64,000 nucleotides of DNA from a virus (Duplodnaviria; Caudoviricetes): positions 1 to 64,000 of IMG/VR virus record IMGVR_UViG_3300033067_001119, one strand, 5' to 3'. Every line of letters begins with the position of its first letter. The stretch's first letter is position 1. Positions 4,701 through 58,440 of this stretch are shown one piece after another. The notes below the pieces were generated by a model. The model did not search any database, had not been told where the DNA came from, and worked only from the letters and a program-made list of their open reading frames with translations. Made by a program: the position numbers and the translations under genes.

Positions 4701-4918
4701 GCGGTCGTGGTGCCGCGGTTGCCGTAGATGGTGCCGCCGCCGATGTTCGGCAGAACGGCCGACAGGGAGACCCACGACGGAAGGCCCAGAGTGACGCCGT
4801 TGTTGCCGCAGAACGTCGAGGCGGGTGCCTGCCCCGAGCACTGCGCAAGAGCGCTGGGCGAGGCTGTCAAGGCCAGCAGGAGGGCAATAATTGAGAACAG
4901 ATAGTCGCGACGAGTCAT
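1727..4918 (-). CDS. Tailspike/fibre with C-terminal pectate-lyase-like beta-helix (putative depolymerase)
   Basis: 1063 aa, G/T/S-rich; DAASKAYVDS and VLVKNQAAPAQNGIY fibre motifs; KNIYWPKPSSCYLL...EVFGDG beta-helix entry; signal-peptide-like N-terminus. Confidence 0.8.
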   Translation of the reverse strand: MTRRDYLFSIIALLLALTASPSALAQCSGQAPASTFCGNNGVTLGLPSWVSLSAVLPNIGGGTIYGNRGTTTAAPSGITNPVLGIPGTSTGQIGFAGAVSGTVTIKPGATAAGTYNFNLPTDAGASGQPMLSGGGGSAAMTFGTLGLAGGGTGATTAAGARSSLGLGTIATQNASSVAISGGSITGTSFNASGTTITNVPTPSAAGDAASKAYVDSVGSGFNPVAASLLATAAVLPNSPTYSNGASGVGATLTAGSNTTLTVDGTAVALNDVVLVKNQAAPAQNGIYTLTQLGSGAAPWILTRATYFDTAAEMLNNSTTAITAGSANVGQTWVMSPAVTTVGTTASTWVLFSGSTSGVTVGTTTVGGGTTTRVLYDNAGVLGEYQITGTGKVVMDTSPTIASPTFSGTVAGANTVPNSVLAQGGAATLKGNPTSSTANVQDFTIQGLTARGTPGAADKLPIYDNSAGTIKYVLPADIINSQTIANNRVLANVSGGTATPTGTSGTSLFDSIYCNTVGYVIARTLSAWTCSNAFPINMAWMGADGTGAVSASTLFATAAATGKNIYWPKPSSCYLLTADVQLTGAQEVFGDGRGVPTFCVTSNAGFTNGVIKCSGSQPGNTIRDLMVQFTQAEPTPAASTTGTISGTSLTVASGTGIAIGQVVGPAGSVQPNVTIASGSGTSWTLTFAPTAYTGPITTYVVSTIRSQLTAYKPFLYCQDSARVSVRHVLVQEAWDFADFRGNSGGLEMLDVQFSAYNKGIQIDGSLDSIRLTDIHCWPFGIGSGTTKYGALTQTPVAGSTSGAMCFSIGRVDGMTMTNVTTAQQLGLYMFYGTFATAGDAGITCTGCNFDTFNGGVQTSGNFKMVGGGIGLQTGVTGWVMETTGGGTKTSAWFGNVAMGGQTYGSYIQMQNCTLCTLNMDQLYFTGAVNSVVFAGVSASVVNSNIWLSNSYFTEFPVAMEVVSAFAPTTAGVNNFHIVNNIFQTSPNVAYTNPLINILGNCGTQVNRAYIAGNRFIDKGTGAGTAILKQCSQYDVISQNIAPGWTYTLPAATCTSAACYTGNLN

Positions 4919-5418
4919 GGCGCAAAATCTCCGTAAAACCCAGCAGCACCGATCCTACGTGCAGCAGCGGCCTGTTCCTTATCCTTAAATTCACCGAGGA
5001 AAATTCTCGATCCGTTTCGGTAGATTAAGGCTACCCAAACCCGTCTACGGCGAGAAAAAACCACTCCAGTCGAGCCGCTAGTATTGTCCTTTCTCATCGA
5101 AGAGTTTTGCTTGTTCTGCGTGACCGTAGCCTCGCGCAAGTTACTCCACCTGTTGTCGTCTCGCTTTCGGTTGCGATGGTCGATTTCAAATTGTGGCCAC
5201 TCGTTTTTCATGAAAAGCCAAGCCACGCGATGCGCCAAATAGAAGACGCCATTTATCCCTATGTATCGGTATCCATTTGATGTGACAGAGCCAGCGATTG
5301 CCCCCTTTGGCTGACGACCGCGCGCCGCCTTCCACCTGAACACGCCAGTCAATGGATCATACTCCAACAACTGCTGGATCGTCTCTGGGGGTAAATTTTT
5401 CGTTCTTTGCTTTGCCAT
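4915..5418 (-). CDS. HNH homing endonuclease with AP2-like domain
   Basis: LEYDPLTGVFRW, YLAHRVAW, IDHRNRKRDDNRWSNLREAT; more AT-rich than flanks. Confidence 0.9.
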   Translation of the reverse strand: MAKQRTKNLPPETIQQLLEYDPLTGVFRWKAARGRQPKGAIAGSVTSNGYRYIGINGVFYLAHRVAWLFMKNEWPQFEIDHRNRKRDDNRWSNLREATVTQNKQNSSMRKDNTSGSTGVVFSRRRRVWVALIYRNGSRIFLGEFKDKEQAAAARRIGAAGFYGDFAP

Positions 5419-9245: not shown

Positions 9246-9779
9246 TTACGCTCCAAAACCCAACGGCATGACCGGGACTACCGGCTGCACCAAAGGCACA
9301 TCTCTCGTCTCACCATCGTGAGCAAATTCACCTTGGAGCTTTCGAGCCGCTTCGAGGTATGCCGCATGGGCCTCCTCTTTCGTATCGAAATACCCCAGAG
9401 CAATCTGCCTTCTCTGGTAGGTGATGGATGCCTGCCACCGGCCGGTCCATCTCCCTCGCTTCAAGACCTTGCTGGCACCTTTCAGACCGCTGGTATTTCG
9501 CGAGTGCCGCTTTGCGTTAGCGGAATTCTGCGAGTACGTCGCAATTCTCAGGTTGTCGATCCGATTATCGAGGCGATCACCATTGATGTGGTCGATCACC
9601 TTCCCTTCCGGGTCTTCGCCAGTCGCCAGCAGCCAAGCCACTCTATGAGCCCACAAACTCTTCTGGTTCACTCGAAGTAGCCGGTACCCATTGCTGATGG
9701 AGCCGGGCTCTTTCTTCCAAGTGAACCGGCCAGTTGCCGGATCGTAGGTCAGCTCCTCTGACAGCTCTCGGTAGTCCAT
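9246..9779 (-). CDS. HNH homing endonuclease with AP2-like domain
   Basis: LTYDPATGRFTW, LWAHRVAW, IDHINGDRLDNRIDNLR; start moved to the ATG after the GGGAGG RBS. Confidence 0.9.
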   Translation of the reverse strand: MDYRELSEELTYDPATGRFTWKKEPGSISNGYRLLRVNQKSLWAHRVAWLLATGEDPEGKVIDHINGDRLDNRIDNLRIATYSQNSANAKRHSRNTSGLKGASKVLKRGRWTGRWQASITYQRRQIALGYFDTKEEAHAAYLEAARKLQGEFAHDGETRDVPLVQPVVPVMPLGFGA

Positions 9780-9783
9780 CTCG

Positions 9784-9805
9784 CCTCCCTCTTGGTAGAA
9801 GGAGG
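9784..9805 (-). promoter_or_regulatory. 9-bp hairpin sequestering the HNH Shine-Dalgarno
   Basis: CCTCCTTCT-ACCA-AGAGGGAGG, preceded by TGTGATATGAT (-10-like). Confidence 0.65.
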
Positions 9806-9821
9806 AAATCATATCACACCA

Positions 9822-30552: not shown

Positions 30553-30617
30553 GAGCCCCAATGGCTCGACCCGCACCTTATCGCACATCCCGGAGCGCCG
30601 GTCAACAGGATGTTTAC
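30553..30617 (-). promoter_or_regulatory. Repeated operator/promoter/hairpin element, copy 1
   Basis: GTAAAC-N5-GTTGAC, 33 nt, then GAGCCATTGGGGCTC. Confidence 0.85.
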
Positions 30618-33121
30618 GCTGCCCTCCGCTTCCGTGCCCCCGGGTACAGGTTCTTCGGCACCGGCTTGTGCTTGGCGCGCTCGGTCTCCTCGTAGCGGAT
30701 TTCGCTGTCGTTGCGCAGCAGGCCGAGGTCCCGCAGGTGCTTGATGCCCTGCGTCATGGCGTCCGTCAGATCGTCGTGCTTGCCCTTGGGGAAGATCGCC
30801 ATTTCGTCGATCAGGTCCTGCCCCCACTGCCGGAGCGGAAAGGGGATGTAGACCAGCTCTTGGCTGAACGCTGGCTGCACCGACTGCGCCCGCGCCCACT
30901 TGTCGCCCCTGGGCTCGATCAGCTGCACTGCCCAGCCTGCGTGCGGGTGCGAATTGGCCAACGACTGTGCGGCCGAGATGCCCGCCGACTTGTTCTCGAT
31001 CAGGAGCCGATCCGCCTTGCGCCGGGTGCAGGTGTCGGCCAGCCACTCCACAAGCCCCCAGCTGCGCATCTGGCGCTCGCGGAACGCAATCGCCTTCTCG
31101 CCCGGCTGCAGGGTGATCTTGGGCCCCGAGAACTTCAGGATGCGCCGCCACGCCTCGATCACCATGACGCGATTGTAGCCCTCCTCGTTCTGGAAGATGC
31201 CAAGGCAGACCGCCGCGCTCGGGTCGCTGTTCTCCTTCTGCCCGTAGGCCGAATCAACCGACACCACGACGTAGCTGAAGATCGGGAATTTGCCGTCTGC
31301 CGGGCTCCACGGCTGCCACCACTCGCGCTCGAAGATCGAGCCGCCGCGGGTCTCTGGCGTCTGCTGGTACTGGGAGTTGGACGATGCTAGCCCCCAGACC
31401 ACATAATTGCCGGTCGTGGTGGTTAGGCCGTAGACCTCCTCAGTCGCGTCCGGCTCAATCGATATTACCCGCTCCCGGCCGGTGAACATGCGCGAGTTGA
31501 TCGCACTCTCGATGATCCGGTCGCGCCATTTTGTGGGCTGCACCTGATGCAGAAAACGCTGATACAGAGACAACATGGAAGACCGGCCAGTTGGGCCAGC
31601 TTTGAGCCAATAGGAACGCACCGGCGCATGCCCTTTTGCCCTCTGCCGGTGGCGCATCCCATAATCGAGCCCCAACAGGCTCAAATTAGCCTCCAGCTTC
31701 TCGCACAGGGGCAAATTCTTGCCTGCAGACTGGGTAAATGAGATCAGAGCGCTGGCGCTATTATGTTCGCGGCGCAGGTTGAGAGAAACGGTACCCTCAC
31801 CATCAAAGAACCCAGCCAACCAACCTGCCGCCCGAACCTCGTCTGGGGCCAGCTGCGGTATTGCTGGCGGGCATACTCGACGCAACTCACCGCCAATCCA
31901 TGCTGGGGCATAGGGGGGATGAGCGGCATCATTGCGCCCGGTCCACCACCTATGGTTCGCGGTGCAGCGGATTGTTCGACCGCTGTCGAATGTGACCTTG
32001 ACGCAAGGCTGGAGTGATTTGTGGACATCCAGAACGGTGGCCTCTTGGTATCGAGCGCGCCGCCTGTTGTCACCGATCCTGAACCCCACAATCTTGTCCC
32101 CCGGCACAACGGTGCCGATGGGCCTCATTGACAGATCGGCCATCAAGATCGGGGCTTCATACGGGTTGCAAGCCCAAGCGAACTTGCTCGCGTCGGACTT
32201 CATGGTCGGGATGATGTGCTCCGGGAAGCGCTCCGGCCACGCCAGCTCACCGTCGCAGTCCTGCGGGCGTGGCTTCCAGCGGGGATCGACCCAGCCGATG
32301 CTGGTGGCGAGCGGCTGCCCGTTGTCGTCGGCCTGCCAGACGTACTCCATCGGGATCAGCAGGTGGCACCAGCCATCCATCGAGCTAATGATCTCGCCGG
32401 AGACGTCCTCCTCGTTCACCCGCTGCATGATGACGACCTTCGCGCCGGTCTCCATGTTGTTGAGGCGGGACGACAGTGATTCGCGGAACCAGCGGATGGT
32501 CTCCTGCCGGACTGCCTTGGACTCCGATTCCTTGACGTTGTGCGGGTCGTCGATGATGGCCCGGTCGCCGCGCTCGCCGGTGCCGACGCCGCCAACCGAG
32601 GAGGCCAGCTTCCAGCCGTGCCGCATGTTGGTGACCTTGGTCTCGCCGACCTTCCGCAGCTGGACGCGGTCGCCGTACATTTCCTGATATTCCGGGCAGG
32701 TCAGCAGGTCCTTGAAGCGACCGTTGTCGCGCTCCGTCAGCATCGAGGAGTAGCTGAAGGTCACATAGCGGATGTGAGGCTTGTTCATCGGGCCCCACTC
32801 CCACGCGGGCCAGAAGACGTCCGTCAGCAGGCTCTTCATGAAGCCCGGCGGGACGTTGATCAGGAGCTTGGTGATCTCCCCGAAGGTGACCGCCTCAAGG
32901 TGCTCGCAGATCGCTTCCAGAGCCCACCCATCGACAAACTTGGTCCCCGGCTCCAGAACTGACCAGAAGTAGCGGACGAACTCCAGCAGGCCTCCCCGCC
33001 ATACGCCATCGGCATCCCGGTATCCGCGCCGCTGCTGCAGCTTCTTGGCCTGCCGACGACGCATCACGGCCATCAGCTTGGCAAACTCGGCGTGCTCAGG
33101 CTGGGAGAGCGGCTGATTCAC
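30614..33121 (-). CDS. terL: Terminase large subunit (intein-containing)
   Basis: LLINVPPGFMKS, IIDDPHN, VVSVDSAY, IENKSAG, HDDLTDA. Confidence 0.95.
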   Translation of the reverse strand: MNQPLSQPEHAEFAKLMAVMRRRQAKKLQQRRGYRDADGVWRGGLLEFVRYFWSVLEPGTKFVDGWALEAICEHLEAVTFGEITKLLINVPPGFMKSLLTDVFWPAWEWGPMNKPHIRYVTFSYSSMLTERDNGRFKDLLTCPEYQEMYGDRVQLRKVGETKVTNMRHGWKLASSVGGVGTGERGDRAIIDDPHNVKESESKAVRQETIRWFRESLSSRLNNMETGAKVVIMQRVNEEDVSGEIISSMDGWCHLLIPMEYVWQADDNGQPLATSIGWVDPRWKPRPQDCDGELAWPERFPEHIIPTMKSDASKFAWACNPYEAPILMADLSMRPIGTVVPGDKIVGFRIGDNRRRARYQEATVLDVHKSLQPCVKVTFDSGRTIRCTANHRWWTGRNDAAHPPYAPAWIGGELRRVCPPAIPQLAPDEVRAAGWLAGFFDGEGTVSLNLRREHNSASALISFTQSAGKNLPLCEKLEANLSLLGLDYGMRHRQRAKGHAPVRSYWLKAGPTGRSSMLSLYQRFLHQVQPTKWRDRIIESAINSRMFTGRERVISIEPDATEEVYGLTTTTGNYVVWGLASSNSQYQQTPETRGGSIFEREWWQPWSPADGKFPIFSYVVVSVDSAYGQKENSDPSAAVCLGIFQNEEGYNRVMVIEAWRRILKFSGPKITLQPGEKAIAFRERQMRSWGLVEWLADTCTRRKADRLLIENKSAGISAAQSLANSHPHAGWAVQLIEPRGDKWARAQSVQPAFSQELVYIPFPLRQWGQDLIDEMAIFPKGKHDDLTDAMTQGIKHLRDLGLLRNDSEIRYEETERAKHKPVPKNLYPGARKRRAA
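31376..32170 (-). mobile_element. 265-aa intein with LAGLIDADG endonuclease in terL
   Basis: FAWA|CNPYEAPILMAD...CTANHRW...GWLAGFFDGEG...VYGLTTTTGNYVVWGLASSN|SQYQQ. Confidence 0.9.
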
Positions 33122-43652: not shown

Positions 43653-44234
43653 TCAATCCCAGCTGATCCTGCTGATGGTCGCCGGGCCCCTATGATCGCC
43701 GTCAAAAACGAACCAAGCGAAGGGCACGGTGTTGGTCGAGCGCGGCCCTTCCCAGCCCTCCCTGTGCATGAAGGGAAGTCGGTTTCGGAAGATATGGACG
43801 CGCGCTAGATGCCCCCGGTCGAGGCACCAGAGCCGCGCCCGGCCCAGCTCCGTTTTCTGGTTTCCAGCCTCAAGGAAGGATAGCCGTAGTAGGGCGACGA
43901 CGTAGGGACACAACATGAGGGCATGCCTGACGTGGATCGACGCAGCAGCATATGGCGGGTTCATCACAATGCCGTCGACGCCAGATGGCACCTTCCGCGC
44001 CTGCAGGAAGTCGTAGGCTCCGGTCTGGAATGGGTAGTCCCGGTACTCGATGTCGGTGGCGACGACAGCATGTCCGGCATCCAATAAAATTTCTGCGATG
44101 GCACCCAGCCCGCAGTGTGGCTCCCAGATGCCATGGGGAAGGCGCTCGGCGCGAATCAGTGCGCGGGTGGCCTCCGGTGGGGTGCTGTAAAAATCCAGAC
44201 CGCGCTCCGCGAGCGCGTGCCGTATCTTAACCAT
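43653..44234 (-). CDS. N6-adenine DNA methyltransferase-like protein
   Basis: DFYSTP, WEPHCGLG, IVMNPPY. Confidence 0.8.
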   Translation of the reverse strand: MVKIRHALAERGLDFYSTPPEATRALIRAERLPHGIWEPHCGLGAIAEILLDAGHAVVATDIEYRDYPFQTGAYDFLQARKVPSGVDGIVMNPPYAAASIHVRHALMLCPYVVALLRLSFLEAGNQKTELGRARLWCLDRGHLARVHIFRNRLPFMHREGWEGPRSTNTVPFAWFVFDGDHRGPATISRISWD

Positions 44235-44706
44235 GAATAGGGAGGCTTTTGCGGTAATCTTCTCGCGCGGCGACAGCCTCCTCCAAAGTGGGATAGGTGC
44301 CGATGGTGATGTTCTTCCAGTTGAAGCCAATGACAGCACGATAGCCATCCCGGAACCTCTTTATCCCGGGAGCGCCGCTGGTGTTGTTTTTGTTGAGACC
44401 CTTCCGATTATGAAGGTTTACTAGAGGGGTGGTTACCCGAAGATTCACCCACCTATTGTCGGCCTCTTGGCCATTGCGGTGATCTGTATGGCTTTTCTTC
44501 GGTGGCCACTTTCCAGTCATAAACAGCACCGCGAGGTGGTGACCGTAATAGGCCTCGTAGTCGATGGTGATCGTGACATAACCGCTTGCCATGACATAAC
44601 CAGCGACATCGCCAACCTTCTTGTTGGCTCGGTCTATCTTGTAGGTGAACGCGCCCGTCTCTGGGTCATAATCCAACACCTGCTTCAGCCGCTCCTGCGT
44701 GAGCAT
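44227..44706 (-). CDS. HNH homing endonuclease with AP2-like domain
   Basis: LDYDPETGAF, TDHRNG...DNRWVNLR. Confidence 0.85.
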   Translation of the reverse strand: MLTQERLKQVLDYDPETGAFTYKIDRANKKVGDVAGYVMASGYVTITIDYEAYYGHHLAVLFMTGKWPPKKSHTDHRNGQEADNRWVNLRVTTPLVNLHNRKGLNKNNTSGAPGIKRFRDGYRAVIGFNWKNITIGTYPTLEEAVAAREDYRKSLPIHG

Positions 44707-44711
44707 ATTTC

Positions 44712-45155
44712 CTACTCCCAATCCCAAACACTGATGATCAGGCCCGGGTACGGCCCGTAATACTTCCGGAAGCTGGAGACGATGATCTGGCTGTCGTCTT
44801 TCCAGACGATCTTGTTGAGGGCGTCGCAGACCACCTTGCTGATGTTGTCGAAGTCGGGCTTCCCGGTTGGCATCAGATCGCCTGTAAGGGCCGCCTGTCG
44901 CTTTTTCTTACTCCAGCTGTCTGGGATGGCCATGCAGGCCTCGATCCGCACAGAGACGGCTCCCAACCTCATTGGCAAGGTGCCCATGCGGCGGGCCGCC
45001 TCGACTGCTACGGTCTCCTCGTAGGTCTTGGTCTTCTTGTCGGTCCAGACACGGACGAACTCACCAGCTCGCCCAAAACGCGGACGACCCTTGCCCCGGG
45101 GCTGGCCGGAGACAAGGATCGTGACGAACGCGCCGGGCGTATCAGTGCTTGAGAT
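44712..45155 (-). CDS. rusA: RusA-like Holliday junction resolvase (non-canonical start)
   Basis: PRGKGRPRF...KPDFDNISKVVCDALNKIVWKDDSQIIV; no ATG/GTG/TTG above residue ~57. Confidence 0.8.
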   Translation of the reverse strand: MSSTDTPGAFVTILVSGQPRGKGRPRFGRAGEFVRVWTDKKTKTYEETVAVEAARRMGTLPMRLGAVSVRIEACMAIPDSWSKKKRQAALTGDLMPTGKPDFDNISKVVCDALNKIVWKDDSQIIVSSFRKYYGPYPGLIISVWDWE

Positions 45156-53629: not shown

Positions 53630-53703
53630 TGGTACTGCCTGATGGTTACGCTCCATCGTGTCGCGGTCCACAGCCGCGCGCTCTGCTATTGAGCTAAGGC
53701 AGC
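53630..53703 (-). tRNA. trnH: tRNA-His(GTG), G1:U72/A73, T-loop AGCGTAA
   Basis: Cloverleaf; encoded CCA. Confidence 0.85.
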
Positions 53704-53709
53704 ATGAAA

Positions 53710-53780
53710 TGGTCCCGAAGCCCTGTGTCGATCAGGGCTGGCAGCCGTATGAAAGCTGCGTCCTCGCCGGAGGCATCGGG
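53710..53780 (-). tRNA. tRNA-Met/Ile2(CAT), T-loop ATCGACA
   Basis: Cloverleaf; loop TTCATAC. Confidence 0.75.
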
Positions 53781-53781
53781 A

Positions 53782-53852
53782 TGGCAGCGGCACACAGTGT
53801 CGAACTGTGCTCTCAGGTTTCAAAGACCCAATCCCTCACCGGAGGTGCCGCA
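53782..53852 (-). tRNA. trnQ: tRNA-Gln(TTG)
   Basis: Cloverleaf; loop CTTTGAA. Confidence 0.8.
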
Positions 53853-53857
53853 TCAAA

Positions 53858-53933
53858 TGGTAGAGCCTGCGGGTGCTGCCCCCGCTTCCCCGCTTTGAAA
53901 GAGCAGGCATCCTAGCTGGTAGACGAAGGCTCC
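53858..53933 (-). tRNA. trnE: tRNA-Glu(TTC), T-loop GGCAGCA
   Basis: Cloverleaf; loop CTTTCAA. Confidence 0.8.
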
Positions 53934-53934
53934 G

Positions 53935-54009
53935 TGGAGCAGGCAGGGAGAATCGAACTCCCTTGGAACGCCTTGGAAGGGCGACGACCAGCCAATGGCC
54001 CATACCTGC
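53935..54009 (-). tRNA. trnG: tRNA-Gly(TCC)
   Basis: Canonical cloverleaf; U73. Confidence 0.9.
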
Positions 54010-54050
54010 GTAATTCGCAATTCGCCGCGAATTACGGCGAATTGCGGAAT

Positions 54051-54138
54051 TGGCGGAAGGCCGGAGACACGATCACCACACCGTTGCCAGTGCCATGCCC
54101 TTAGCAGGGGCCGCCAGCGCCTCGCTGGTTGACCTTCC
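54051..54138 (-). tRNA. trnS: tRNA-Ser(GCT) with 8/4 architecture
   Basis: 8-bp acceptor, 4-bp T-stem, 6-bp D-stem, long variable arm, G73. Confidence 0.8.
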
Positions 54139-54140
54139 AT

Positions 54141-54217
54141 TGGTGCCCACGGGAAGATTCGAACTCCCCTAGTCCAGCTACGGTACCCCGCTTAGGAGGC
54201 GGGGCCGGTACGTGGGC
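54141..54217 (-). tRNA. D-armless tRNA-like gene, anticodon CCT (Arg)
   Basis: 7-bp acceptor, 6-nt linker, 6-bp anticodon stem, 17-nt variable region, TTCGAAT loop. Confidence 0.6.
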
Positions 54218-54221
54218 AAAT

Positions 54222-54298
54222 TGGAGCCCCGAGGGTGAGTCGAACACCCGCCGGATCGCGTTTAGAAGACGCGCGCTCTTCCGCTGAGCTATCGGGGC
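54222..54298 (-). tRNA. trnR: tRNA-Arg(TCT)
   Basis: Canonical cloverleaf. Confidence 0.9.
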
Positions 54299-54300
54299 AT

Positions 54301-54374
54301 TGGAGATGCGAGCGCGAGTCGAACGCGCTTCCTCGGCTTTGCAGGCCGGTCCATGGCCGTTCTGGCATCGCATC
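54301..54374 (-). tRNA. trnC: tRNA-Cys(GCA)
   Basis: Cloverleaf; U73. Confidence 0.9.
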
Positions 54375-54378
54375 ATGT

Positions 54379-54448
54379 TGGCTGCGGACGAGGGTCTCGA
54401 ACCCGCTTCACCCGGTTCAGAGCCGGGCTTACTCCCTGAGTATCCGCA
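54379..54448 (-). tRNA. trnQ: tRNA-Gln(CTG)
   Basis: U1:A72; short D-arm. Confidence 0.8.
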
Positions 54449-54451
54449 AAA

Positions 54452-54528
54452 TGGTCTGGATGGCAGGCTTCGATCCTGCGGCCCCTCGCTTCCGAAGCGA
54501 GTGCTCTTCCGGGCTGAGCTACATCCAG
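54452..54528 (-). tRNA. trnP: tRNA-Pro(CGG), T-loop ATCGAAG
   Basis: C1:G72, A73. Confidence 0.9.
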
Positions 54529-54533
54529 ATGAA

Positions 54534-54610
54534 TGGTGATCCCGCGAGGATTCGAACCCCGACCTCCCAGATTCGTAGTCTGGCGCATTATCCAGTTGTG
54601 CTACGGGACC
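54534..54610 (-). tRNA. trnR: tRNA-Arg(ACG)
   Basis: Canonical cloverleaf. Confidence 0.9.
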
Positions 54611-54614
54611 GTTT

Positions 54615-54689
54615 TGGCGCTGCATGGGAGAATTGAACTCCCGTTCTCCGCGTGAGAGGCGGGCATCCTGACCACTAGACGAATGCAGC
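54615..54689 (-). tRNA. trnE: tRNA-Glu(CTC)
   Basis: Canonical cloverleaf. Confidence 0.9.
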
Positions 54690-54694
54690 ATGAT

Positions 54695-54769
54695 TGGCTC
54701 TGCTCCGAGGAATCGAACCTCGCTCGCATGCGTTAACAGCGCAGCCGCACACCTTGTGCGTTGAGCAGA
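54695..54769 (-). tRNA. trnN: tRNA-Asn(GTT)
   Basis: U1:A72, G73. Confidence 0.9.
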
Positions 54770-54776
54770 ACAGAGA

Positions 54777-54848
54777 TGGTGGAGTGACGGAGAGTTGAAC
54801 TCCGGACGGCAATCTTGCAAGGATCGCCTGCAGCCCGCTGCTCACCCC
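54777..54848 (-). tRNA. trnA: tRNA-Ala(TGC)
   Basis: G3:U70 present; reduced D-arm. Confidence 0.8.
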
Positions 54849-54852
54849 ATGT

Positions 54853-54928
54853 TGGTGCCCTGCGCCTGATTCGAACAGGCCTCCTGCGCTCTTCAGGCGC
54901 GTGCAATCACCAGATTTGCTAACAGGGC
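54853..54928 (-). tRNA. trnF: tRNA-Phe(GAA)
   Basis: Canonical cloverleaf. Confidence 0.9.
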
Positions 54929-54957
54929 GAATTGTGGGATTTTCCCACAATTCAAAT

Positions 54958-55031
54958 TGGAGCGGCCAGTCGGTTACGATCCGACGTCTCATCGTTGGCA
55001 ACGATGAACTCTGCCATTGAGCTATGGCCGC
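54958..55031 (-). tRNA. trnG: tRNA-Gly(GCC), T-loop ATCGTAA
   Basis: Cloverleaf; U73. Confidence 0.85.
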
Positions 55032-55032
55032 G

Positions 55033-55117
55033 TGGTGGGTAACCCGTGAATCGAACACGGCATGCCCGAAGGCGCAGCTTTTACAGAGCCGCTCAGTCAC
55101 CAGACTTGGCGTTACCC
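55033..55117 (-). tRNA. trnY: tRNA-Tyr(GTA)
   Basis: Long variable arm GCC-TTCG-GGC. Confidence 0.9.
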
Positions 55118-55122
55118 GAGAT

Positions 55123-55197
55123 TGGTTGCGGGAAAGGGACTTGCACCCCTGACCTCCGAGTTATGAGCCCGGCGAGCTGCTACTGCTCCACCCCGCG
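55123..55197 (-). tRNA. trnfM: Initiator-type tRNA-fMet(CAT), T-loop TGCAAGT
   Basis: C1xA72 mismatch; GGG in anticodon stem. Confidence 0.85.
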
Positions 55198-55201
55198 ATA
55201 A

Positions 55202-55277
55202 TGGTGCGCCGCTTGAACTCGGTCGCGCATCGACAAGTACATCCGTTGTTCGATGGAATTAGCGCTTGTAGCACATC
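55202..55277 (-). ncRNA. CCA-ending tRNA-like element of unassigned identity
   Basis: GTTCAA and CCA end; CATCG/CGATG stem; no cloverleaf. Confidence 0.35.
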
Positions 55278-55368
55278 TGGCGGGCGAGGGGTAGTAACGC
55301 TCTCCATGCCCGGTGGGCACCTTTGGTTTTCGAGACCAAGCTGGGGACTTCCCGCAGTTCTCTCGCCC
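55278..55368 (-). tRNA. trnS: tRNA-Ser(CGA) with extended acceptor and long D-stem
   Basis: 8-9 bp acceptor, T-loop AGCGTTA, long variable arm, G73. Confidence 0.7.
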
Positions 55369-55372
55369 GTGT

Positions 55373-55448
55373 TGGTGGTCCCCCGGTGATTCGAACACCG
55401 TGTCTCCCGCTTCGGAGGCGGGTGCCTTGTCCATCCGGCTCGGGGACC
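55373..55448 (-). tRNA. trnR: tRNA-Arg(CCG)
   Basis: Canonical cloverleaf. Confidence 0.9.
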
Positions 55449-55449
55449 G

Positions 55450-55827
55450 TTACTTCCTGCCCTTGCGGCGCACGTTGCCGCGGGCGTCGTAGTTGCCGGT
55501 CGGCCAGTAGCGGTTCATCTTCACCTCGCCGACCAGGCCGTCGTCGGTGAATACCGCCGGGCCCTTCAGCGTCTTGCCGTCGACCGCCTGCTCGAACGCA
55601 AGGTAGCTTCCGCCCGCATCCGGGCTCGCTGGGTTGACGAAAAACAGATCGAGGTCCGTTGGCTCATCCAGCGGGACGGGCACTCCAGCAGCCTCGCAGG
55701 CCCGGTAAAGGGCATCCCTGTATTGCTGGATTACCGCCTGATGCATCCGCCGGTGCGGTGCGTCGTGTATCCAGAGACGGAGCAGCGCCGGGAAGCGCTG
55801 GCCGTCATACTGTACCTTGATCTTCAT
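55450..55827 (-). CDS. Divergent RusA-like protein inside tRNA array
   Basis: LDLFFVNPASPDAGG...FEQAVDG...VFTDDGLV. Confidence 0.5.
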   Translation of the reverse strand: MKIKVQYDGQRFPALLRLWIHDAPHRRMHQAVIQQYRDALYRACEAAGVPVPLDEPTDLDLFFVNPASPDAGGSYLAFEQAVDGKTLKGPAVFTDDGLVGEVKMNRYWPTGNYDARGNVRRKGRK

Positions 55828-55837
55828 GGTGGGCCTT

Positions 55838-55903
55838 TGGTGGAAGCGGCGGGCTGGGTGAGCCCGCTAATCACTCTGTTATGAGCAGAGGGTCTCCGCT
55901 TTT
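55838..55903 (-). tRNA. D-armless tRNA-like remnant (CAT) overlapping the GIY-YIG 3' end
   Basis: CTCTG-CTCATAA-CAGAG arm, GCGGGC/GCCCGC T-like arm, CGCTTCC-A-CCA. Confidence 0.5.
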
Positions 55904-56404
55904 CGACTTCACTTCCCTCTGACGTTGCCACTGCAGGATCGCGGCTTGGCGCAGTCTCTCCCTATGCTCCGGCGATTTGGTGCGCCCCTTGTGGGCTAGG
56001 CCACCCTTTCGCCCGTTCTCACGAAGCTGCTCTTTGGCAAGAGAAAATATCCCAGTTCCACGATCTCGATTTGCGACCCCGCCCCGGCTTTGACTTTTGG
56101 ACGCGAATGCGCCCTTGCGGGCGTTCTCCGCGGTAAATCCACCAACACCACCGCGACGCATATTGTAGGTGCGCGACACACGGTAATCGGCGGTCAATTC
56201 CACTTCTTTTGCGTAAGCCTCAGCACTGGTGTCAAAAACGAACAACACGTCCTTGCGGAAGGAACGCTTGCCATGCTTCCGGATCGCAGCGCGGATAGCT
56301 CGACCACTCCCGAAGTATCCATCATTCGGATTGTCCGTCTTGTGGACACCGACGTAGGTCTTGCCGTTGGCCAGATTAGTGATGCGGTAGACGGTGAACA
56401 TCAC
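55871..56404 (-). CDS. GIY-YIG homing endonuclease with NUMOD3-like tail
   Basis: TVYRITNLANGKTYVG...YFGSG; HKGRTKSPEHRERL. Confidence 0.9.
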   Translation of the reverse strand: MMFTVYRITNLANGKTYVGVHKTDNPNDGYFGSGRAIRAAIRKHGKRSFRKDVLFVFDTSAEAYAKEVELTADYRVSRTYNMRRGGVGGFTAENARKGAFASKSQSRGGVANRDRGTGIFSLAKEQLRENGRKGGLAHKGRTKSPEHRERLRQAAILQWQRQREVKSKSGDPLLITE

Positions 56405-56447
56405 CGCACTATATCACAGGCCTTCCCATCTGGCTCAACGTGCGAAT

Positions 56448-56524
56448 TGGTCGGAGCGGCAGGATTTGAACCCGCGTATGCCTGCTCCCAAAGCAGGTGG
56501 TCGGCCAGACTGACCCACACTCCG
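56448..56524 (-). tRNA. trnP: tRNA-Pro(TGG)
   Basis: Canonical cloverleaf. Confidence 0.92.
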
Positions 56525-56629
56525 ATGTTCCCTCTCGTGGCGACGACGATGCGTCTTATCCGGCGCAGAAGTGTGGGACCTTGGTCACCACAGCGCTACC
56601 TCCAGTACGCCACGCCCCGGGGGACATGA
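56525..56629 (-). ncRNA. Unassigned ~105-nt structured RNA between tRNAs
   Basis: Nested stems CGTGGCG/CGCCACG, GCGC/GCGC, TGTGG/CCACA, GACC/GGTC. Confidence 0.4.
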
Positions 56630-56630
56630 T

Positions 56631-56705
56631 TGGCGATCCTGTCGGGTTACGATCCCGATTTGCTCCCGTGACAGGGGAGTAGCTTAGCCACTAGCTGACA
56701 GGACC
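56631..56705 (-). tRNA. trnD: tRNA-Asp(GTC), T-loop ATCGTAA
   Basis: Cloverleaf; G73. Confidence 0.88.
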
Positions 56706-56706
56706 T

Positions 56707-56782
56707 TGGTGTGCGTGGGGTGATTCGAACACCCGCTGTACAGGTTCTCGGCCTGCTCTCTCTGCCACTGGAGTACACGCAC
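56707..56782 (-). tRNA. trnL: tRNA-Leu(GAG), short variable loop, C33
   Basis: Cloverleaf; loop CCGAGAA. Confidence 0.8.
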
Positions 56783-56787
56783 ATTGT

Positions 56788-56863
56788 TGGTACACCCTCG
56801 GAGAATCGAACTCCGCCCTCATGGTTTAAGAGACCAGCGCACGAACCAACATGCTCAGGGTGT
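56788..56863 (-). tRNA. trnK: tRNA-Lys(CTT)
   Basis: Cloverleaf. Confidence 0.88.
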
Positions 56864-56868
56864 GTGAG

Positions 56869-56951
56869 TGGAGGACGTCGGAGGTTACGATCCTCATGCG
56901 ACGCGGTTTAAAAGACCGGCCCAAAGCCACTCTGGTTTACGCTCGACGTCC
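56869..56951 (-). tRNA. trnK: tRNA-Lys(TTT) with 8/4 architecture, U73
   Basis: GGACGTCG/CGACGTCC, GAGG/CCTC, 6-bp D-stem. Confidence 0.7.
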
Positions 56952-56956
56952 GTATC

Positions 56957-57160
56957 TCAGGACGCCGGTTTGCTGATGTTCTTCTCTTCGCACACCACGA
57001 TGGTGCCGGTGTCGCGGAAGTGATGCACCCAGCGTCGCCGCAGGCGCACGGGCACAAGCCCAAACTGGCAGTGGACGCATGGCGATGCTGCAGCCGCCCA
57101 TTCCTTCCATGCCTTCATCGAAGTCTCGACGAGAGGCCAGTCCGTTGCTGCCGTAGTCAT
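56957..57160 (-). CDS. Small Cys/His protein inside tRNA array
   Basis: CVHC...WVHH...C; AGGAG RBS. Confidence 0.5.
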   Translation of the reverse strand: MTTAATDWPLVETSMKAWKEWAAAASPCVHCQFGLVPVRLRRRWVHHFRDTGTIVVCEEKNISKPAS

Positions 57161-57173
57161 GGCGCTCTCCTGT

Positions 57174-57248
57174 TGGTGCTCGGAAGCGGCTTGCAACCGC
57201 CATGCGAGGCGTACGACGCGGCCTGCCCGCACCTTGCTAAGCCCGAGC
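57174..57248 (-). tRNA. Thr(CGT)-like tRNA with degenerate anticodon stem
   Basis: Good acceptor and T-stem, T-loop TTGCAAG, weak anticodon arm. Confidence 0.5.
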
Positions 57249-57252
57249 CTGT

Positions 57253-57326
57253 TGGTAGTCCCTGCTGGTTCTGCCCCAGCGTCGCACGGTTATCGGCCGC
57301 GCATTCTGCTATTGAACTAAGGGACC
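57253..57326 (-). tRNA. trnI: tRNA-Ile(GAT), C33, T-loop GGCAGAA
   Basis: Cloverleaf. Confidence 0.85.
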
Positions 57327-57330
57327 GTGA

Positions 57331-57405
57331 TGGTACGCGCTGCAGGTGCTGCCCCTGCCGCCTCCAGCGTGTCGAGCTGGCGATCTGCTGATGATCTAAG
57401 CGCGC
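57331..57405 (-). tRNA. trnV: tRNA-Val(GAC), C33, T-loop GGCAGCA
   Basis: Cloverleaf. Confidence 0.85.
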
Positions 57406-57410
57406 ATGAA

Positions 57411-57484
57411 TGGTAGTCCCTGACGGTACCTCCCCGCCTTCACCAGCGTGTAAAACTGGCGCATCAATTTAATGCTTAGGGACC
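57411..57484 (-). tRNA. trnV: tRNA-Val(TAC), T-loop GGAGGTA
   Basis: Cloverleaf. Confidence 0.8.
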
Positions 57485-57485
57485 A

Positions 57486-57562
57486 TGGTACCCGCGGCGT
57501 GATTTGAACACGCACTGTAACTTGTTTTGAGCAAGTGGCCTCTGCCGTTGGGCTACGCGGGC
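57486..57562 (-). tRNA. trnL: tRNA-Leu(CAA), short variable loop
   Basis: Cloverleaf; 6-nt variable region. Confidence 0.85.
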
Positions 57563-57566
57563 ATGG

Positions 57567-57643
57567 TGGTGTCCGCCCGGAGATTCGAACTCCGAACCTT
57601 CGCATTCTGAGTGCGACGCCTCTGCCAGTTGGGCTAGGCGGAC
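57567..57643 (-). tRNA. trnL: tRNA-Leu(CAG), short variable loop
   Basis: Cloverleaf; 5-nt variable region. Confidence 0.88.
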
Positions 57644-57644
57644 A

Positions 57645-57721
57645 TGGAGCCCGGCCGGGGTTACGATCCCCGTCCTCGCCCTTACCGGGGGCGTGTGCTG
57701 GCCATTGATCACTAGCCGGGC
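57645..57721 (-). tRNA. trnT: tRNA-Thr(GGT), C33, T-loop ATCGTAA
   Basis: Cloverleaf. Confidence 0.85.
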
Positions 57722-57802
57722 ATGTAGGCGGGAGCGTCCTAACCAACTAGACGAACAGGCCTGACGGCCCGTGGTGGATTCGAACCACCGTTTCTCCCTG
57801 CT
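57722..57802 (-). ncRNA. Circularly permuted, anticodon-less tRNA-like RNA (Asp/Glu-type body)
   Basis: 3' half (GGGAG-AAAC-GGTGG-TTCGAAT-CCACC-ACGGGCC-GTCA) precedes 5' half (GGCCTGT-TCGTCTAGTTGGTTAGGAC-G-CTCCC). Confidence 0.8.
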
Positions 57803-57877
57803 TGGAGCCCATGCCGATGCTCGAACTCGGCTCTCACCCTTACAAGGGGCGCGCGTCGCCATCTACGCTTCATGGGC
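57803..57877 (-). tRNA. trnT: tRNA-Thr(TGT)
   Basis: Cloverleaf. Confidence 0.88.
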
Positions 57878-57880
57878 AAA

Positions 57881-57955
57881 TGGTGCTGCCTCGGTGCCTC
57901 GAACACCGGTCACCGCTTTACGAGGGCGGCGCTCTTCCTGTTGAGCTAAGGCAGC
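57881..57955 (-). tRNA. trnT: tRNA-Thr(CGT)
   Basis: Canonical cloverleaf. Confidence 0.9.
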
Positions 57956-58161
57956 GCATGCGCACGCGGGTGGATGATCTTGTAGGCCTCGTAGTTGACG
58001 GGTTGATCATGCAACATCGTGCGATCTGCGGATTTGATCTTGTTGATCCAAAAGCGCGCCTCTTGGGCGCTGTAATGGTTTTCGAGAAACCGCTTCAGCT
58101 TGCGCGGATTCTCGGAAACCTGAACCACCTTCCCGTCCGGGAGGATGAACTTTAGGGCCAT
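57946..58161 (-). CDS. Hypothetical basic protein leading the tRNA array
   Basis: AAGGGA RBS; overlaps tRNA-Thr by 10 nt. Confidence 0.5.
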   Translation of the reverse strand: MALKFILPDGKVVQVSENPRKLKRFLENHYSAQEARFWINKIKSADRTMLHDQPVNYEAYKIIHPRAHALP

Positions 58162-58169
58162 CAGATTTC

Positions 58170-58440
58170 CCTTGAGCCGTTGCCGGTGGCGCGCAGTGAA
58201 GCCGCTTTCCCCGGAGGTCTTGTCGCCGGTCGTCCCACGAATGGGGCCTGCACACAAGGGCCTTTGCTCTCGGTGTCCGGCTGGGAGATGCAACTATCTT
58301 GGGGGAAGGTTGCGGGTATTTTCTCTCTGCCGGTAGTCGGCAGGAGGTTCGGTACCCGCTGCCGGTTAGTCTTTGCGCCCCTTGGGGCTATCGATCATGG
58401 ATTCCAAGCACGCAAACGACCACGTCCGCTGATTTAGCGG
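58170..58440 (-). ncRNA. Candidate structured RNA/leader upstream of tRNA array
   Basis: Non-coding, with many hairpins including UUCG and nested GCGGGTA/TACCCGC. Confidence 0.4.

What the first reader, a model, noticed from the sequence alone, without database searches (positions are those of the whole stretch)
57722..57802. Circularly permuted, anticodon-less tRNA gene
Seen: order is 3' half then 5' half. The 7-bp acceptor GGCCTGT/ACGGGCC is closed by a GTCA loop (CCA changed to TCA), the D and T arms are canonical, and the CTCCC/GGGAG stem (same as the Asp tRNA) is left open at the anticodon. Processing of the two flanking Thr tRNAs would release it. Established: permuted tRNA genes are known from some algae and an archaeon, and bacterial YrlA Y RNAs have T-acceptor-D order with a closed acceptor. 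Inference: a mimic of an anticodon-cleaved tRNA that cannot be charged, so a decoy for elbow-binding or tRNA-cleaving defences, a ligase substrate that circularises, or a minimal Y-like RNA. No Ro60 or RtcB gene is in the window.
Basis: partly seen in the sequence, partly recalled or inferred. Interest (0 to 1): 0.9.

Follow-up and report, generated by a model that had tools for sequence, protein, structure and literature searches.

The report
Stand-alone tRNA-shaped Y-RNA head in phage
Between two threonine tRNA genes this uncultured phage encodes a small RNA with the body of a glutamate tRNA, in rotated order, with a sealed amino-acid end and no anticodon. It is the tRNA-like "head" of a Y RNA without the stem or the Ro60 protein that Y RNAs normally need, so the head apparently works alone.

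Summary
Window 57722-57802 (- strand) folds as a rotated cloverleaf: a 5-bp closing stem, a 4-nt variable loop, a T arm, a 7-bp acceptor capped by GUCA, and a D arm. It fills the gap between tRNA-Thr(UGU) and tRNA-Thr(GGU).

It is neither chance nor an artefact. Four orthologues lie in homologous tRNA arrays, one in an unrelated phage backbone. Together, 99% of pair cells form standard pairs and 11 of 21 pairs are compensated on both sides.

A wider set of free-standing relatives in about 36 viral loci also covaries. In 14 of those loci a true Ro60 gene lies beside the element. There the head sits on a long 5'/3' stem and the 5-bp closure is absent. In tRNA arrays the closure is present.

The D arm and variable loop are of tRNA-Glu type. 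This genome and three other complete genomes with closed heads have no Ro60 match.

Best reading: a handle-less YrlA-type head, released by processing of the flanking tRNAs, that acts as a non-chargeable tRNA-body mimic binding a host factor. The identity is firm. The decoy function is inferred.

It is not a true permuted tRNA gene.

Earlier agents of this scan noted similar "handle-less tRNA mimics" on other DNA. I found no published description.

The parts
57722..57802 (-). Whole inter-tRNA transcript segment: the predicted released RNA, 81 nt before any trimming
   Evidence: It lies between ARAGORN tRNA-Thr(tgt) 57803-57877 and tRNA-Thr(ggt) 57645-57721. It folds as a rotated cloverleaf.
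57730..57798 (-). 69-nt structured core (the 'head'): closing stem, variable loop, T arm, sealed acceptor, D arm
   Evidence: This is the model R1 region. Orthologues score 53-84 bits. Covariation was counted.
57794..57798 (-). Closing stem, 5' strand GGGAG (the position of anticodon-stem residues 39-43)
   Evidence: It pairs with 57730-57734. It is invariant or G-U in 5 orthologues. It covaries across the family in array contexts.
57790..57793 (-). 4-nt variable loop AAAC (A44 A45 A46 C48, no residue 47), tRNA-Glu type
   Evidence: Read directly. Real phage tRNA-Glu genes in the fetched loci have the same loop.
57773..57789 (-). T arm: 5-bp stem and canonical loop UUCGAAU
   Evidence: Four of the 5 stem pairs change on both sides among the orthologues.
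57755..57772 (-). Sealed acceptor: 7-bp stem (57766-57772 with 57755-57761) capped by the tetraloop GUCA (57762-57765)
   Evidence: All 7 pairs change on both sides among the orthologues. The loop is GCCA in L109 and GUAA in L111, and UUCG, GAAA or GCAA in wider relatives.
57736..57754 (-). U8 C9 plus the D arm (stem GUCU/GGAC with a U13-G22 wobble, loop AGUUGGUUA with G18 G19), tRNA-Glu type
   Evidence: The D stem is invariant in 44 of 44 distinct relatives. The motif is found in 17 of 38 tRNA-Glu and in at most 1 tRNA of any other named isotype. The best own-tRNA match is Glu(CUC).
57730..57735 (-). G26 and the closing stem 3' strand CUCCC (the position of residues 27-31)
57722..57729 (-). 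8-nt 3' tail GCCUACAU, ending at the RNase P site of tRNA-Thr(GGU)
   Evidence: GCCUA recurs in G006. GCCUAC ends the long 3' flank of the L109 and L111 orthologues.
57799..57802 (-). 4-nt 5' tail AGCA, directly after the encoded CCA of tRNA-Thr(UGU)
57803..57877 (-). Upstream flanking tRNA-Thr(UGU). Its 3' maturation would set the 5' end of the element.
   Evidence: ARAGORN. Rfam tRNA, 40.5 bits.
57645..57721 (-). Downstream flanking tRNA-Thr(GGU). RNase P cleavage at its 5' end would set the 3' end of the element.
   Evidence: ARAGORN.

Best explanation
The element is a gene for a small structured RNA: the tRNA-like 'head' of a YrlA-type Y RNA, built on a tRNA-Glu body. It stands alone, without the 5'/3' Ro60-binding stem ('handle') and without any Ro60 gene.

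Shown:
- the fold
- its conservation with compensatory changes
- its tRNA-Glu-type D arm and variable loop
- its kinship of plan with Ro60-linked heads
- the absence of a detectable Ro60 gene

Inferred:
- It is transcribed as part of the tRNA array and cut out when RNase P and the 3' processing enzymes mature the two flanking Thr tRNAs.
- This gives a stable RNA of about 70-80 nt with an intact tRNA elbow, a sealed acceptor and a blunt 5-bp stem where the anticodon arm would be.
- It cannot be charged and cannot decode.

Most likely it acts as a mimic that occupies a host protein recognising the tRNA elbow and the tRNA-Glu-type D helix. Candidates are the still unknown effector that YrlA heads bind, or a tRNA-targeting nuclease. 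It would titrate that protein away during infection.

My odds: the identity as a functional handle-less YrlA-type head is about 0.9. The decoy or titration mechanism is about 0.35.
For: Fold:
- MFE and centroid are the rotated cloverleaf.
- All canonical tertiary partners are present: U8/A14, G15/C48, G18 G19 with the T loop, U54/A58, A46 with U13-G22 (read).

Orthologues:
- Heads occur in G003, G006, L109 and L111. The first three lie in the same slot, between the second Thr tRNA, (UGU) or (CGU), and Thr(GGU). L111's head lies elsewhere in its array.
- G006 is an unrelated phage. It has no portal match, and the only shared genes are ORFs in or beside the tRNA array and HNH endonuclease paralogues.
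- Five sequences: 99% of cells paired, 11 of 21 pairs changed on both sides, 0 of 500 shuffles as high, and at most 2 such pairs when partners are slid.

Wider family:
- 44 distinct sequences: 95.8% paired against at most 52% when slid.
- Acceptors are capped by UUCG, GAAA or GCAA tetraloops.

Two classes:
- True Ro60 (TROVE plus vWA_Ro60) lies next to the element in 14 of 36 loci.
- There the head sits on a long terminal stem and the 5-bp closure forms only 2-3 of 5 pairs.
- In array contexts the closure forms 4-5 of 5 pairs and covaries.

Plan:
- Rfam YrlA aligns to the element over its T arm, closed stem and D arm, model positions 30-81.

Ro60:
- Absent from G000, G003, G006 and G008, all 100% complete by CheckV.
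- Positive controls G010 and G011 were found.

tRNA-Glu type.

Literature:
- The YrlA head is the effector-binding domain and its effector is unknown (bioRxiv 10.1101/312249).
- The YrlA head was proposed as a competitive inhibitor of an anticodon nuclease (PMC7790460).
Against: - No expression data exist and no partner is known.
- No protein gene co-occurs with the closed heads in the fetched loci.
- The element is single-copy and dispensable. The relative G002 keeps the array but its slot has decayed: no R1 match and fold z = 0.13. Relatives G001 and G005 have no detected tRNA genes, and G004 only two.
- Many anticodon nucleases read the anticodon loop, which this RNA lacks, so it may be a poor competitor for them.
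- The alignments used for covariation were fitted to the model.
- The family was collected with a pattern that fixed part of the D arm and the variable loop. The invariance of those positions is therefore partly imposed. The U13-G22 wobble and the 3' D strand were not imposed.
Confidence: 0.5

Rival explanations
1. It is a cis-acting element of the array transcript: a tRNA-shaped spacer that helps fold, stabilise or order the processing of the polycistronic tRNA precursor, with no role once released.
For: - It occupies a tRNA-like slot with tRNA-like spacing, 4 and 8 nt from its neighbours.
- Several relatives lie in similar slots.
Against: - Relatives of the same head type occur away from tRNAs and next to Ro60.
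- The neighbouring tRNAs are themselves full RNase P substrates.
- The D-stem sequence, including a G-U wobble, is invariant. That points to recognition of the RNA itself rather than mere bulk structure.
Confidence: 0.15
2. It is a decaying relic. An ancestral array-borne Y-like RNA with long flanks lost both flanks, and its protein partner if it had one. The head is on its way out.
For: - Orthologues L109 and L111 carry conserved flanks of about 32 nt (5') and 49 nt (3'), with extra hairpins.
- The window's 3' tail GCCUAC matches the end of that flank, as a deletion would leave it.
- G002's copy has decayed.
Against: - The three flank-less copies (window, G003, G006) share similar deletion boundaries, which suggests one old event.
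- Since then they have diverged at all 7 acceptor pairs and at 4 of 5 T-stem pairs while keeping pairing. That requires selection on the head after the flanks were lost.
Confidence: 0.12
3. It is a two-piece tRNA-like molecule. RNase P cuts the acceptor loop before G+1, as in Mycobacterium smegmatis YrlA. The two halves stay paired and expose a 3' end that can be repaired to CCA and used, for example charged or modified.
For: - The acceptor has 7 bp, the feature to which Chen et al. attribute RNase P cleavage of M. smegmatis YrlA, which then gains CCA in vivo (PMC4201824).
- The loop reads G-UCA here and G-CCA in L109.
Against: - L111 has GUAA, and most relatives have UUCG or GNRA tetraloops directly on the stem. 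These leave no discriminator or CCA.
- Cleavage within a 4-nt loop is untested.
- GluRS identity includes the anticodon, which is absent. This point comes from established knowledge and was not tested here.
Confidence: 0.1
4. It is a true permuted tRNA gene, as in Cyanidioschyzon merolae or Thermofilum. The ends are joined to make an anticodon loop and the acceptor is then opened to give a working tRNA.
For: The 3' half precedes the 5' half, and both halves are complete.
Against: - Joining the ends gives a 12-nt loop in the window and a 13-nt loop in G003. Neither has a conserved U33-NNN-R37 anticodon frame.
- The 4-nt and 8-nt tails cannot form a bulge-helix-bulge motif.
- Relatives seal the acceptor with tetraloops.
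- No RtcB was found in the phage.
- G003 already has tRNA-Glu(CUC) and tRNA-Glu(UUC) as well as the element.
Confidence: 0.02
5. It is a chance or artefactual junction: two truncated tRNA genes, or a mis-assembly.
For: - Junctions of tandem tRNA-Glu genes do mimic the plan and score 45-56 bits with my model.
- Chen et al. warn of the same trap (PMC4201824).
Against: - No ARAGORN tRNA overlaps the element.
- The loop is only 4 nt.
- Five independent assemblies share the arrangement, with compensatory changes.
Confidence: 0.01

Closest known systems
YrlA (Y RNA-like A; Rfam RF02553), the Ro60/Rsr-bound Y RNAs of bacteria and phages (Chen et al. [quoted passage not shown] 2018, bioRxiv 10.1101/312249)
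   Same: - Same module order: variable region, T arm, closed acceptor-like stem, D arm.
- Same tRNA tertiary partners, no free CCA and no anticodon loop.
- Rfam's model aligns to the element over positions 30-81.
- Heads with the same tRNA-Glu-type D arm lie next to true Ro60 genes in 14 viral loci and 4 bacterial loci.
   Different: - There is no 5'/3' Ro60-binding stem. The flanks are 4 and 8 nt and abut tRNAs, and the head is closed by its own 5-bp stem.
- There is no Ro60 gene in the genome.
- It scores 20.7 bits against a gathering score of 69.
- The D stem is GUCU/GGAC (tRNA-Glu type), not the GCUC/GAGC of the Rfam consensus.
Circularly permuted tRNA genes of Cyanidioschyzon merolae and other algae, and of the archaeon Thermofilum (from memory; reviewed in PMC4090602, which I did not read)
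   Same: The 3' half is encoded upstream of the 5' half, and the two acceptor strands are joined by a short intervening sequence.
   Different: - Those genes mature through a circular intermediate into decoding, chargeable tRNAs.
- This element cannot yield an anticodon loop or, in most relatives, a CCA end.
Canonical tRNA-Glu of bacteria and phages (Rfam RF00005; the 'augmented D helix' identity set of Sekine et al. 1996, from memory)
   Same: - U8-C9, D stem GUCU/GGAC with U11-A24 and U13-G22, A46, and a 4-nt variable loop lacking residue 47.
- The closest own tRNA is Glu(CUC).
   Different: The arm order is rotated, the acceptor is sealed and there is no anticodon arm. Rfam tRNA matches only a fragment, at 13.4 bits.
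Junctions of tandem tRNA-Glu genes: a look-alike and a possible evolutionary source
   Same: - The 3' half of one copy followed by the 5' half of the next gives the same order, with complementary acceptor strands.
- Such junctions score 45-56 bits with model R1.
- L109's loop GCCA equals discriminator plus CCA with no spacer.
   Different: - In junctions both neighbours are complete tRNAs, and the 'loop' holds a discriminator, in most cases CCA, and a spacer.
- Here the outer halves are absent and the loop is a tetraloop.

Membership tests
YrlA / Y RNA (RF02553) | tRNA-like module with the order T arm, closed acceptor-like stem, D arm | tested here: met
   - Fold.
- Rfam YrlA aligns over model positions 30-81 with these three hairpins.
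YrlA / Y RNA (RF02553) | Long stem formed by the 5' and 3' ends that carries the Ro60-binding site (GNCGAAN0-1G motif in Chen et al. 2014) | tested here: not met
   - The flanks are 4 nt and 8 nt and abut tRNA genes.
- Rfam model positions 1-29 and 82-114 are unmatched.
- Ro60-linked relatives do have such a stem.
YrlA / Y RNA (RF02553) | Encoded near a Ro60/Rsr (TROVE) gene (within 4 kb in Chen et al. 2014) and bound by that protein | tested here: not met
   - No TROVE match in the whole genome.
- No tblastn match with 14 phage Ro60 queries; best E = 0.24.
- Positive controls were found.
- Binding itself cannot be tested with these tools.
YrlA / Y RNA (RF02553) | Score at or above Rfam's gathering threshold (69 bits) | tested here: not met
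   20.7 bits. There was no match at E <= 10 in the 5.5-kb scan.
Permuted tRNA genes (algal and archaeal type) | 3' half encoded upstream of the 5' half | tested here: met
Permuted tRNA genes (algal and archaeal type) | Joining the termini restores a 7-nt anticodon loop with a usable anticodon, via a bulge-helix-bulge motif | tested here: not met
   - Joined tails give 12 nt (window) and 13 nt (G003), with no conserved U33/R37 frame.
- The tails are too short for a bulge-helix-bulge motif.
Permuted tRNA genes (algal and archaeal type) | The acceptor is opened to give a 5' end and a discriminator-CCA 3' end | tested here: inconclusive
   - The window loop G-UCA and the L109 loop G-CCA could allow it.
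- L111 (GUAA) and most relatives (UUCG, GNRA) could not.
- Cleavage was not assayed.
Canonical tRNA (RF00005) | Standard arm order with an anticodon arm; detected by tRNA finders | tested here: not met
   - ARAGORN finds no gene at 57722-57802.
- The Rfam tRNA model gives only a truncated 13.4-bit match.
tRNA-Glu body (identity elements outside the anticodon) | U11-A24, U13-G22 with A46, and no residue 47 (4-nt variable loop) | tested here: met
   - Read.
- U13-G22 is kept in 44 of 44 relatives.
- The D-arm motif is largely specific to tRNA-Glu among about 470 unique phage tRNAs.
tRNA-Glu body (identity elements outside the anticodon) | Acceptor identity pairs G1-C72 and U2-A71, and a free CCA end for GluRS | tested here: not met
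   - The window has G1-C72 but G2-C71.
- Acceptor pairs vary freely in relatives.
- The 3' end is sealed.

The most novel reading that the evidence does not exclude
The tRNA-Glu-shaped head is a self-sufficient anti-host RNA. Freed from Ro60, it binds the same host factor that Y-RNA heads engage, or a tRNA-directed defence nuclease that docks on the elbow and the D helix. It thereby blocks that factor during infection. On this reading phage tRNA arrays carry RNA decoys as well as replacement tRNAs, and this RNA would be a direct bait for the long-sought effector of YrlA heads.
Probability: 0.3. Interest if true: 0.85.

Novelty: new variant of a known kind. Interest (0 to 1): 0.62.

Why it matters
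Y RNAs are understood as two-part adaptors: a stem that binds Ro60 and a second module that binds an effector. For the tRNA-like YrlA heads the effector has been unknown since 2014.

A head that is kept under selection without the stem and without Ro60 shows that the head has an activity of its own. It recurs in tRNA arrays that move between unrelated phages. It also offers a minimal 70-nt bait for finding the partner.

The tRNA-Glu identity of the D helix narrows the list of candidate partners.

The finding also warns annotators that 'empty' slots in phage tRNA arrays can hold RNA genes that tRNA finders and Rfam thresholds miss. Conversely, junctions of tandem tRNA-Glu genes imitate them.

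Tried and rejected
- **Exact and strict pattern scans of IMG/VR** found nothing or only G003. A looser pattern was needed.
- **MAFFT alignment of window and G003** misaligned the acceptor, so I built the model from the window sequence alone.
- **Model R1 also hits tRNA-tRNA junctions.** Arg-Arg in G002 scores 25.9 bits. Tandem tRNA-Glu genes in L043 and L080 are hit too, and 63 of the 77 R1 hits from the bacterial pattern scan are such junctions. These were removed or flagged, and they still sit among the 48 rows of alignment A3. The score alone is therefore not diagnostic.
- **Neighbouring ORF 57946-58293** has no relatives.
- **The endonuclease in the array** led to unrelated arrays, not to kin. 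I first called it HNH; Pfam shows it is GIY-YIG/SegE-like.
- **Portal relatives** G001, G004 and G005 have no tRNA array or nearly none.
- **Search for a partner gene.** Clustering ORFs around 36 elements gave only Ro60 (in the handle-bearing class), a second protein found only in Ro60 loci, homing endonucleases and a 125-aa array ORF. Nothing is specific to closed heads.
- **A small CxxC ORF** (56957-57232) shares the element's presence and absence pattern across four genomes, but four genomes are too few to count.
- **The flank motif of L109 and L111** was not found in IMG/VR or in any other fetched locus, so I could not test whether that longer form travels with Ro60.
- **blastn against cultured phages** found only one uncultured huge phage, so no laboratory phage with this head is in hand.
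- **The promoter and terminator scan** of the array was uninformative.
- **DUF2828**, named in earlier scan notes as Ro60-like, is absent from G000, G002 and G003.

Full report
**1. What is there**

The window is the first 64 kb of a 74,452-bp viral record that CheckV rates complete. Its structural genes resemble those of cultured phages only distantly: the portal is 40% identical or less.

On the - strand, 53630-57955 is a tRNA array. ARAGORN finds 23 genes and Rfam adds one more. All 23 ARAGORN genes encode CCA.

The finding is the 81-nt gap between tRNA-Thr(UGU), 57803-57877, and tRNA-Thr(GGU), 57645-57721.

Read 5' to 3' it contains:
- a 4-nt tail
- GGGAG
- AAAC
- a canonical T arm
- a 7-bp acceptor whose strands are joined by GUCA
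- U8 C9
- a D arm with G18 G19
- G26
- CUCCC
- an 8-nt tail

RNAfold gives this rotated cloverleaf as both MFE and centroid, at -33.9 kcal/mol and z = -3.07. All the usual tertiary partners of a tRNA core are present.

**2. It is conserved, with compensatory changes**

Portal-based relatives include G003, at 65% portal identity. Its array has the same element between Thr(CGU) and Thr(GGU).

A pattern scan and a single-sequence covariance model (R1) found a third copy in G006. It lies in the same slot of an array with nearly the same gene order. G006 is otherwise unrelated: it has no portal match, and the only shared genes are ORFs in or beside the tRNA array and HNH endonuclease paralogues. 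The array therefore travels as a cassette.

A metagenome scan added L109 and L111.

Across the five copies:
- 99% of pair cells are standard pairs.
- 11 of 21 pairs change on both sides: all 7 acceptor pairs and 4 of 5 T-stem pairs.
- No shuffle out of 500 reaches this.
- At most 2 pairs do so when partners are slid.

The closing stem and the D stem are invariant.

The acceptor pairing joins the upstream '3' half' to the downstream '5' half'. Its compensation shows selection on the rotated fold itself. Two dead gene fragments would not behave this way.

The relative G002 keeps the array, but its slot no longer matches the model and does not fold. The element can therefore be lost.

**3. The wider family and its two classes**

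R1 matched 48 places in 53 viral loci collected with a loose pattern. Four of these are junctions of tandem tRNA-Glu genes and count as false positives. The remainder are free-standing.

Their acceptors are mostly capped by tetraloops such as UUCG, GAAA and GCAA. That leaves no room for a discriminator, CCA and spacer.

Over 44 distinct sequences, 95.8% of cells pair, against at most 52% when slid. Sixteen of 21 pairs change on both sides.

Clustering the neighbouring ORFs gave one large family, in 14 of 36 loci. It is a true Ro60, with TROVE and vWA_Ro60 domains, and it lies directly beside the element.

- **Ro60-linked class.** The head sits on a long stem made by the 5' and 3' ends. The 5-bp closure forms only 2-3 of 5 pairs.
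- **Array class.** In tRNA-array and other contexts the closure forms 4-5 of 5 pairs, with many different sequences.

The window's element belongs to the closed class.

In bacterial genomes the same pattern mostly finds tandem tRNA-Glu junctions: 63 of the 77 R1 hits. It also finds a few closed-acceptor heads 91-861 nt from a Ro60 match.

**4. Relation to YrlA**

Given only the element, Rfam's YrlA model aligns to it over positions 30-81, which are the T arm, closed stem and D arm. The score is 20.7 bits against a threshold of 69. None of 16 related loci passes that threshold.

Chen et al. (PMC4201824) define YrlA by two features: a Ro60-binding terminal stem, and a location near Ro60. Both were tested here and are not met.

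TROVE, DUF2828 and RtcB are absent from the whole genome. Fourteen phage Ro60 queries find nothing in G000, G002, G003 or G006. The TROVE search finds the positive controls but nothing in the complete genomes G003, G006 and G008.

The element therefore works like a YrlA head but is not a member of YrlA as that family is defined.

**5. A tRNA-Glu body**

The D stem is GUCU/GGAC, with a U13-G22 wobble, A46 and a 4-nt variable loop. This is the signature of tRNA-Glu. Real phage tRNA-Glu genes in the fetched loci have the same D arm and the same AAAC loop.

Among about 470 unique tRNAs, the D-arm motif occurs in 17 of 38 tRNA-Glu and at most once in any other named isotype. The phage's own Glu(CUC) is the closest tRNA. 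The Asp tRNA shares only the 5-bp stem.

Part of this invariance was imposed by my search pattern. The G22 wobble partner was not imposed, and it is kept in 44 of 44 relatives.

A scan by structure alone also found a second head type, with D stem GCUC/GAGC as in the Rfam YrlA consensus. It lies in tandem with the Glu-type head in 7 of the Ro60 loci.

**6. Origin**

L109's acceptor loop is GCCA, which is discriminator plus CCA with no spacer. The window has GUCA and L111 has GUAA. This fits descent from the junction of two tandem tRNA-Glu genes, with drift towards a stable GNNA or GNRA cap.

L109 and L111 carry conserved flanks of about 32 and 49 nt with extra hairpins. The window's tail GCCUAC equals the end of that 3' flank. 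The flank-less form in the window, G003 and G006 therefore looks like a double-deletion derivative.

Those three copies have since diverged with full compensation. This argues that the bare head is still under selection.

**7. How it probably works**

Shown: the structure, the selection on it, the tRNA-Glu type, the lack of a handle and the absence of a detectable Ro60 gene.

Inferred:
- It is released by RNase P at 57721/57722 and by 3' maturation of the upstream tRNA.
- It is as stable as a tRNA.
- It can be neither charged nor used for decoding.
- Its role is that of a mimic that occupies a host factor.

The structure paper on YrlA calls the head the effector-binding domain and points to the conserved D and T stems as the docking site for an unknown factor (bioRxiv 10.1101/312249). 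Hughes et al. suggested that the YrlA head could competitively inhibit an anticodon nuclease (PMC7790460). A phage Ro60 with its Y-like RNAs binds host PNPase in vitro (PMC12135203). A Ro60-like phage protein counters the Ppl defence system (PMC11482910).

These reports make an anti-host role reasonable, but none of them tests a bare head.

The rivals are a cis-acting processing element, a relic, an RNase P-cleaved two-piece RNA, and a true permuted tRNA. They are weighed in their own sections. The last is effectively excluded.

**8. Novelty**

I found no paper describing handle-less, Ro60-less YrlA-type heads in phage tRNA arrays.

Notes from earlier agents of this scan report similar 'handle-less tRNA mimics' on other DNA, and several other kinds of phage tRNA-Glu mimic. 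I formed my reading before seeing those notes and tested it independently on this DNA.

What this report adds:
- the tRNA-Glu identity of the head
- the closed-versus-handle dichotomy tied to Ro60
- movement of the array cassette between unrelated phages
- orthologues with long flanks and with a GCCA loop
- the size of the tandem tRNA-Glu junction confound

Noticed in passing
window 55871-56404 (-): A GIY-YIG/SegE-like homing endonuclease gene sits inside the tRNA array (Pfam; PHROG 314). Its relatives in other viral contigs also lie directly after tRNA genes within arrays.
   Followed up: partly
window 55450-55827 (-): A 125-aa ORF with no Pfam or PHROG match is conserved inside the tRNA arrays of G002, G003 and the otherwise unrelated phage G006.
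   Followed up: partly
window 56957-57232 (-): A small ORF has a C-terminal stretch of about 42 residues (CxxC...C) that is conserved in the arrays of G003 and G006 but not G002. That is the same presence and absence pattern as the tRNA-like head. It has no Pfam match.
   Followed up: partly
window 57256-57326, about 57405-57483 and about 56870-56945 (-): Three tRNA genes are missed by ARAGORN:
- an Rfam tRNA (42 bits) whose loop reads C33 and GAU
- a Val(UAC)-like gene with an aberrant T arm
- a Lys(UUU)-like gene seen in alignment A4

Their positions match Ile, Val and Lys genes in related arrays.
   Followed up: partly
window tRNAs Thr-ggt 57645-57721, Asp 56631-56705, Gly-gcc 54958-55031, His 53630-53703, Pro-cgg 54452-54528 (-): Five tRNAs have non-canonical T loops that begin with A54 (AUCGUAA, AGCGUAA, AUCGAAG) instead of UUCGAAU. 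The tRNA-like head keeps a perfectly canonical elbow. The Thr(GGU) gene of G006 has the same odd loop.
   Followed up: no
window 4915-5418, 9246-9812, 44227-44727 (-); genome 66810-67406: These ORFs form a paralogous family. The three inside the window carry HNH_3 domains (one also AP2), so they are homing-endonuclease-like. Copies occur in G003 and G006.
   Followed up: partly
L040 1094-1225 (+) (phage G002): A 132-nt RNA-like element lies between Thr(UGU) and a degenerate Thr(CGU) gene. It has a terminal stem of about 24 bp and an internal T-arm hairpin. Fold z = -4.4. It has no Rfam match.
   Followed up: partly
L109 830-978 (+); L111 2972-3120 (-): Orthologues of the head are embedded in an RNA of about 150 nt with conserved 5' and 3' flanks and two extra hairpins. 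The flank motif is absent from IMG/VR and from all other fetched loci.
   Followed up: partly
L045, L048, L050, L066, L074, L085, L093: Next to phage Ro60 genes, a Glu-type head and a second head with a GCUC/GAGC D stem lie in tandem, 100-250 nt apart. These phages therefore seem to encode two Y RNAs with different tRNA-like heads.
   Followed up: partly
window 30614-33121 (-): The large terminase ORF (835 aa) matches terminase profiles in two separate stretches, about residues 23-318 and 591-828. This suggests an inserted element in between.
   Followed up: no
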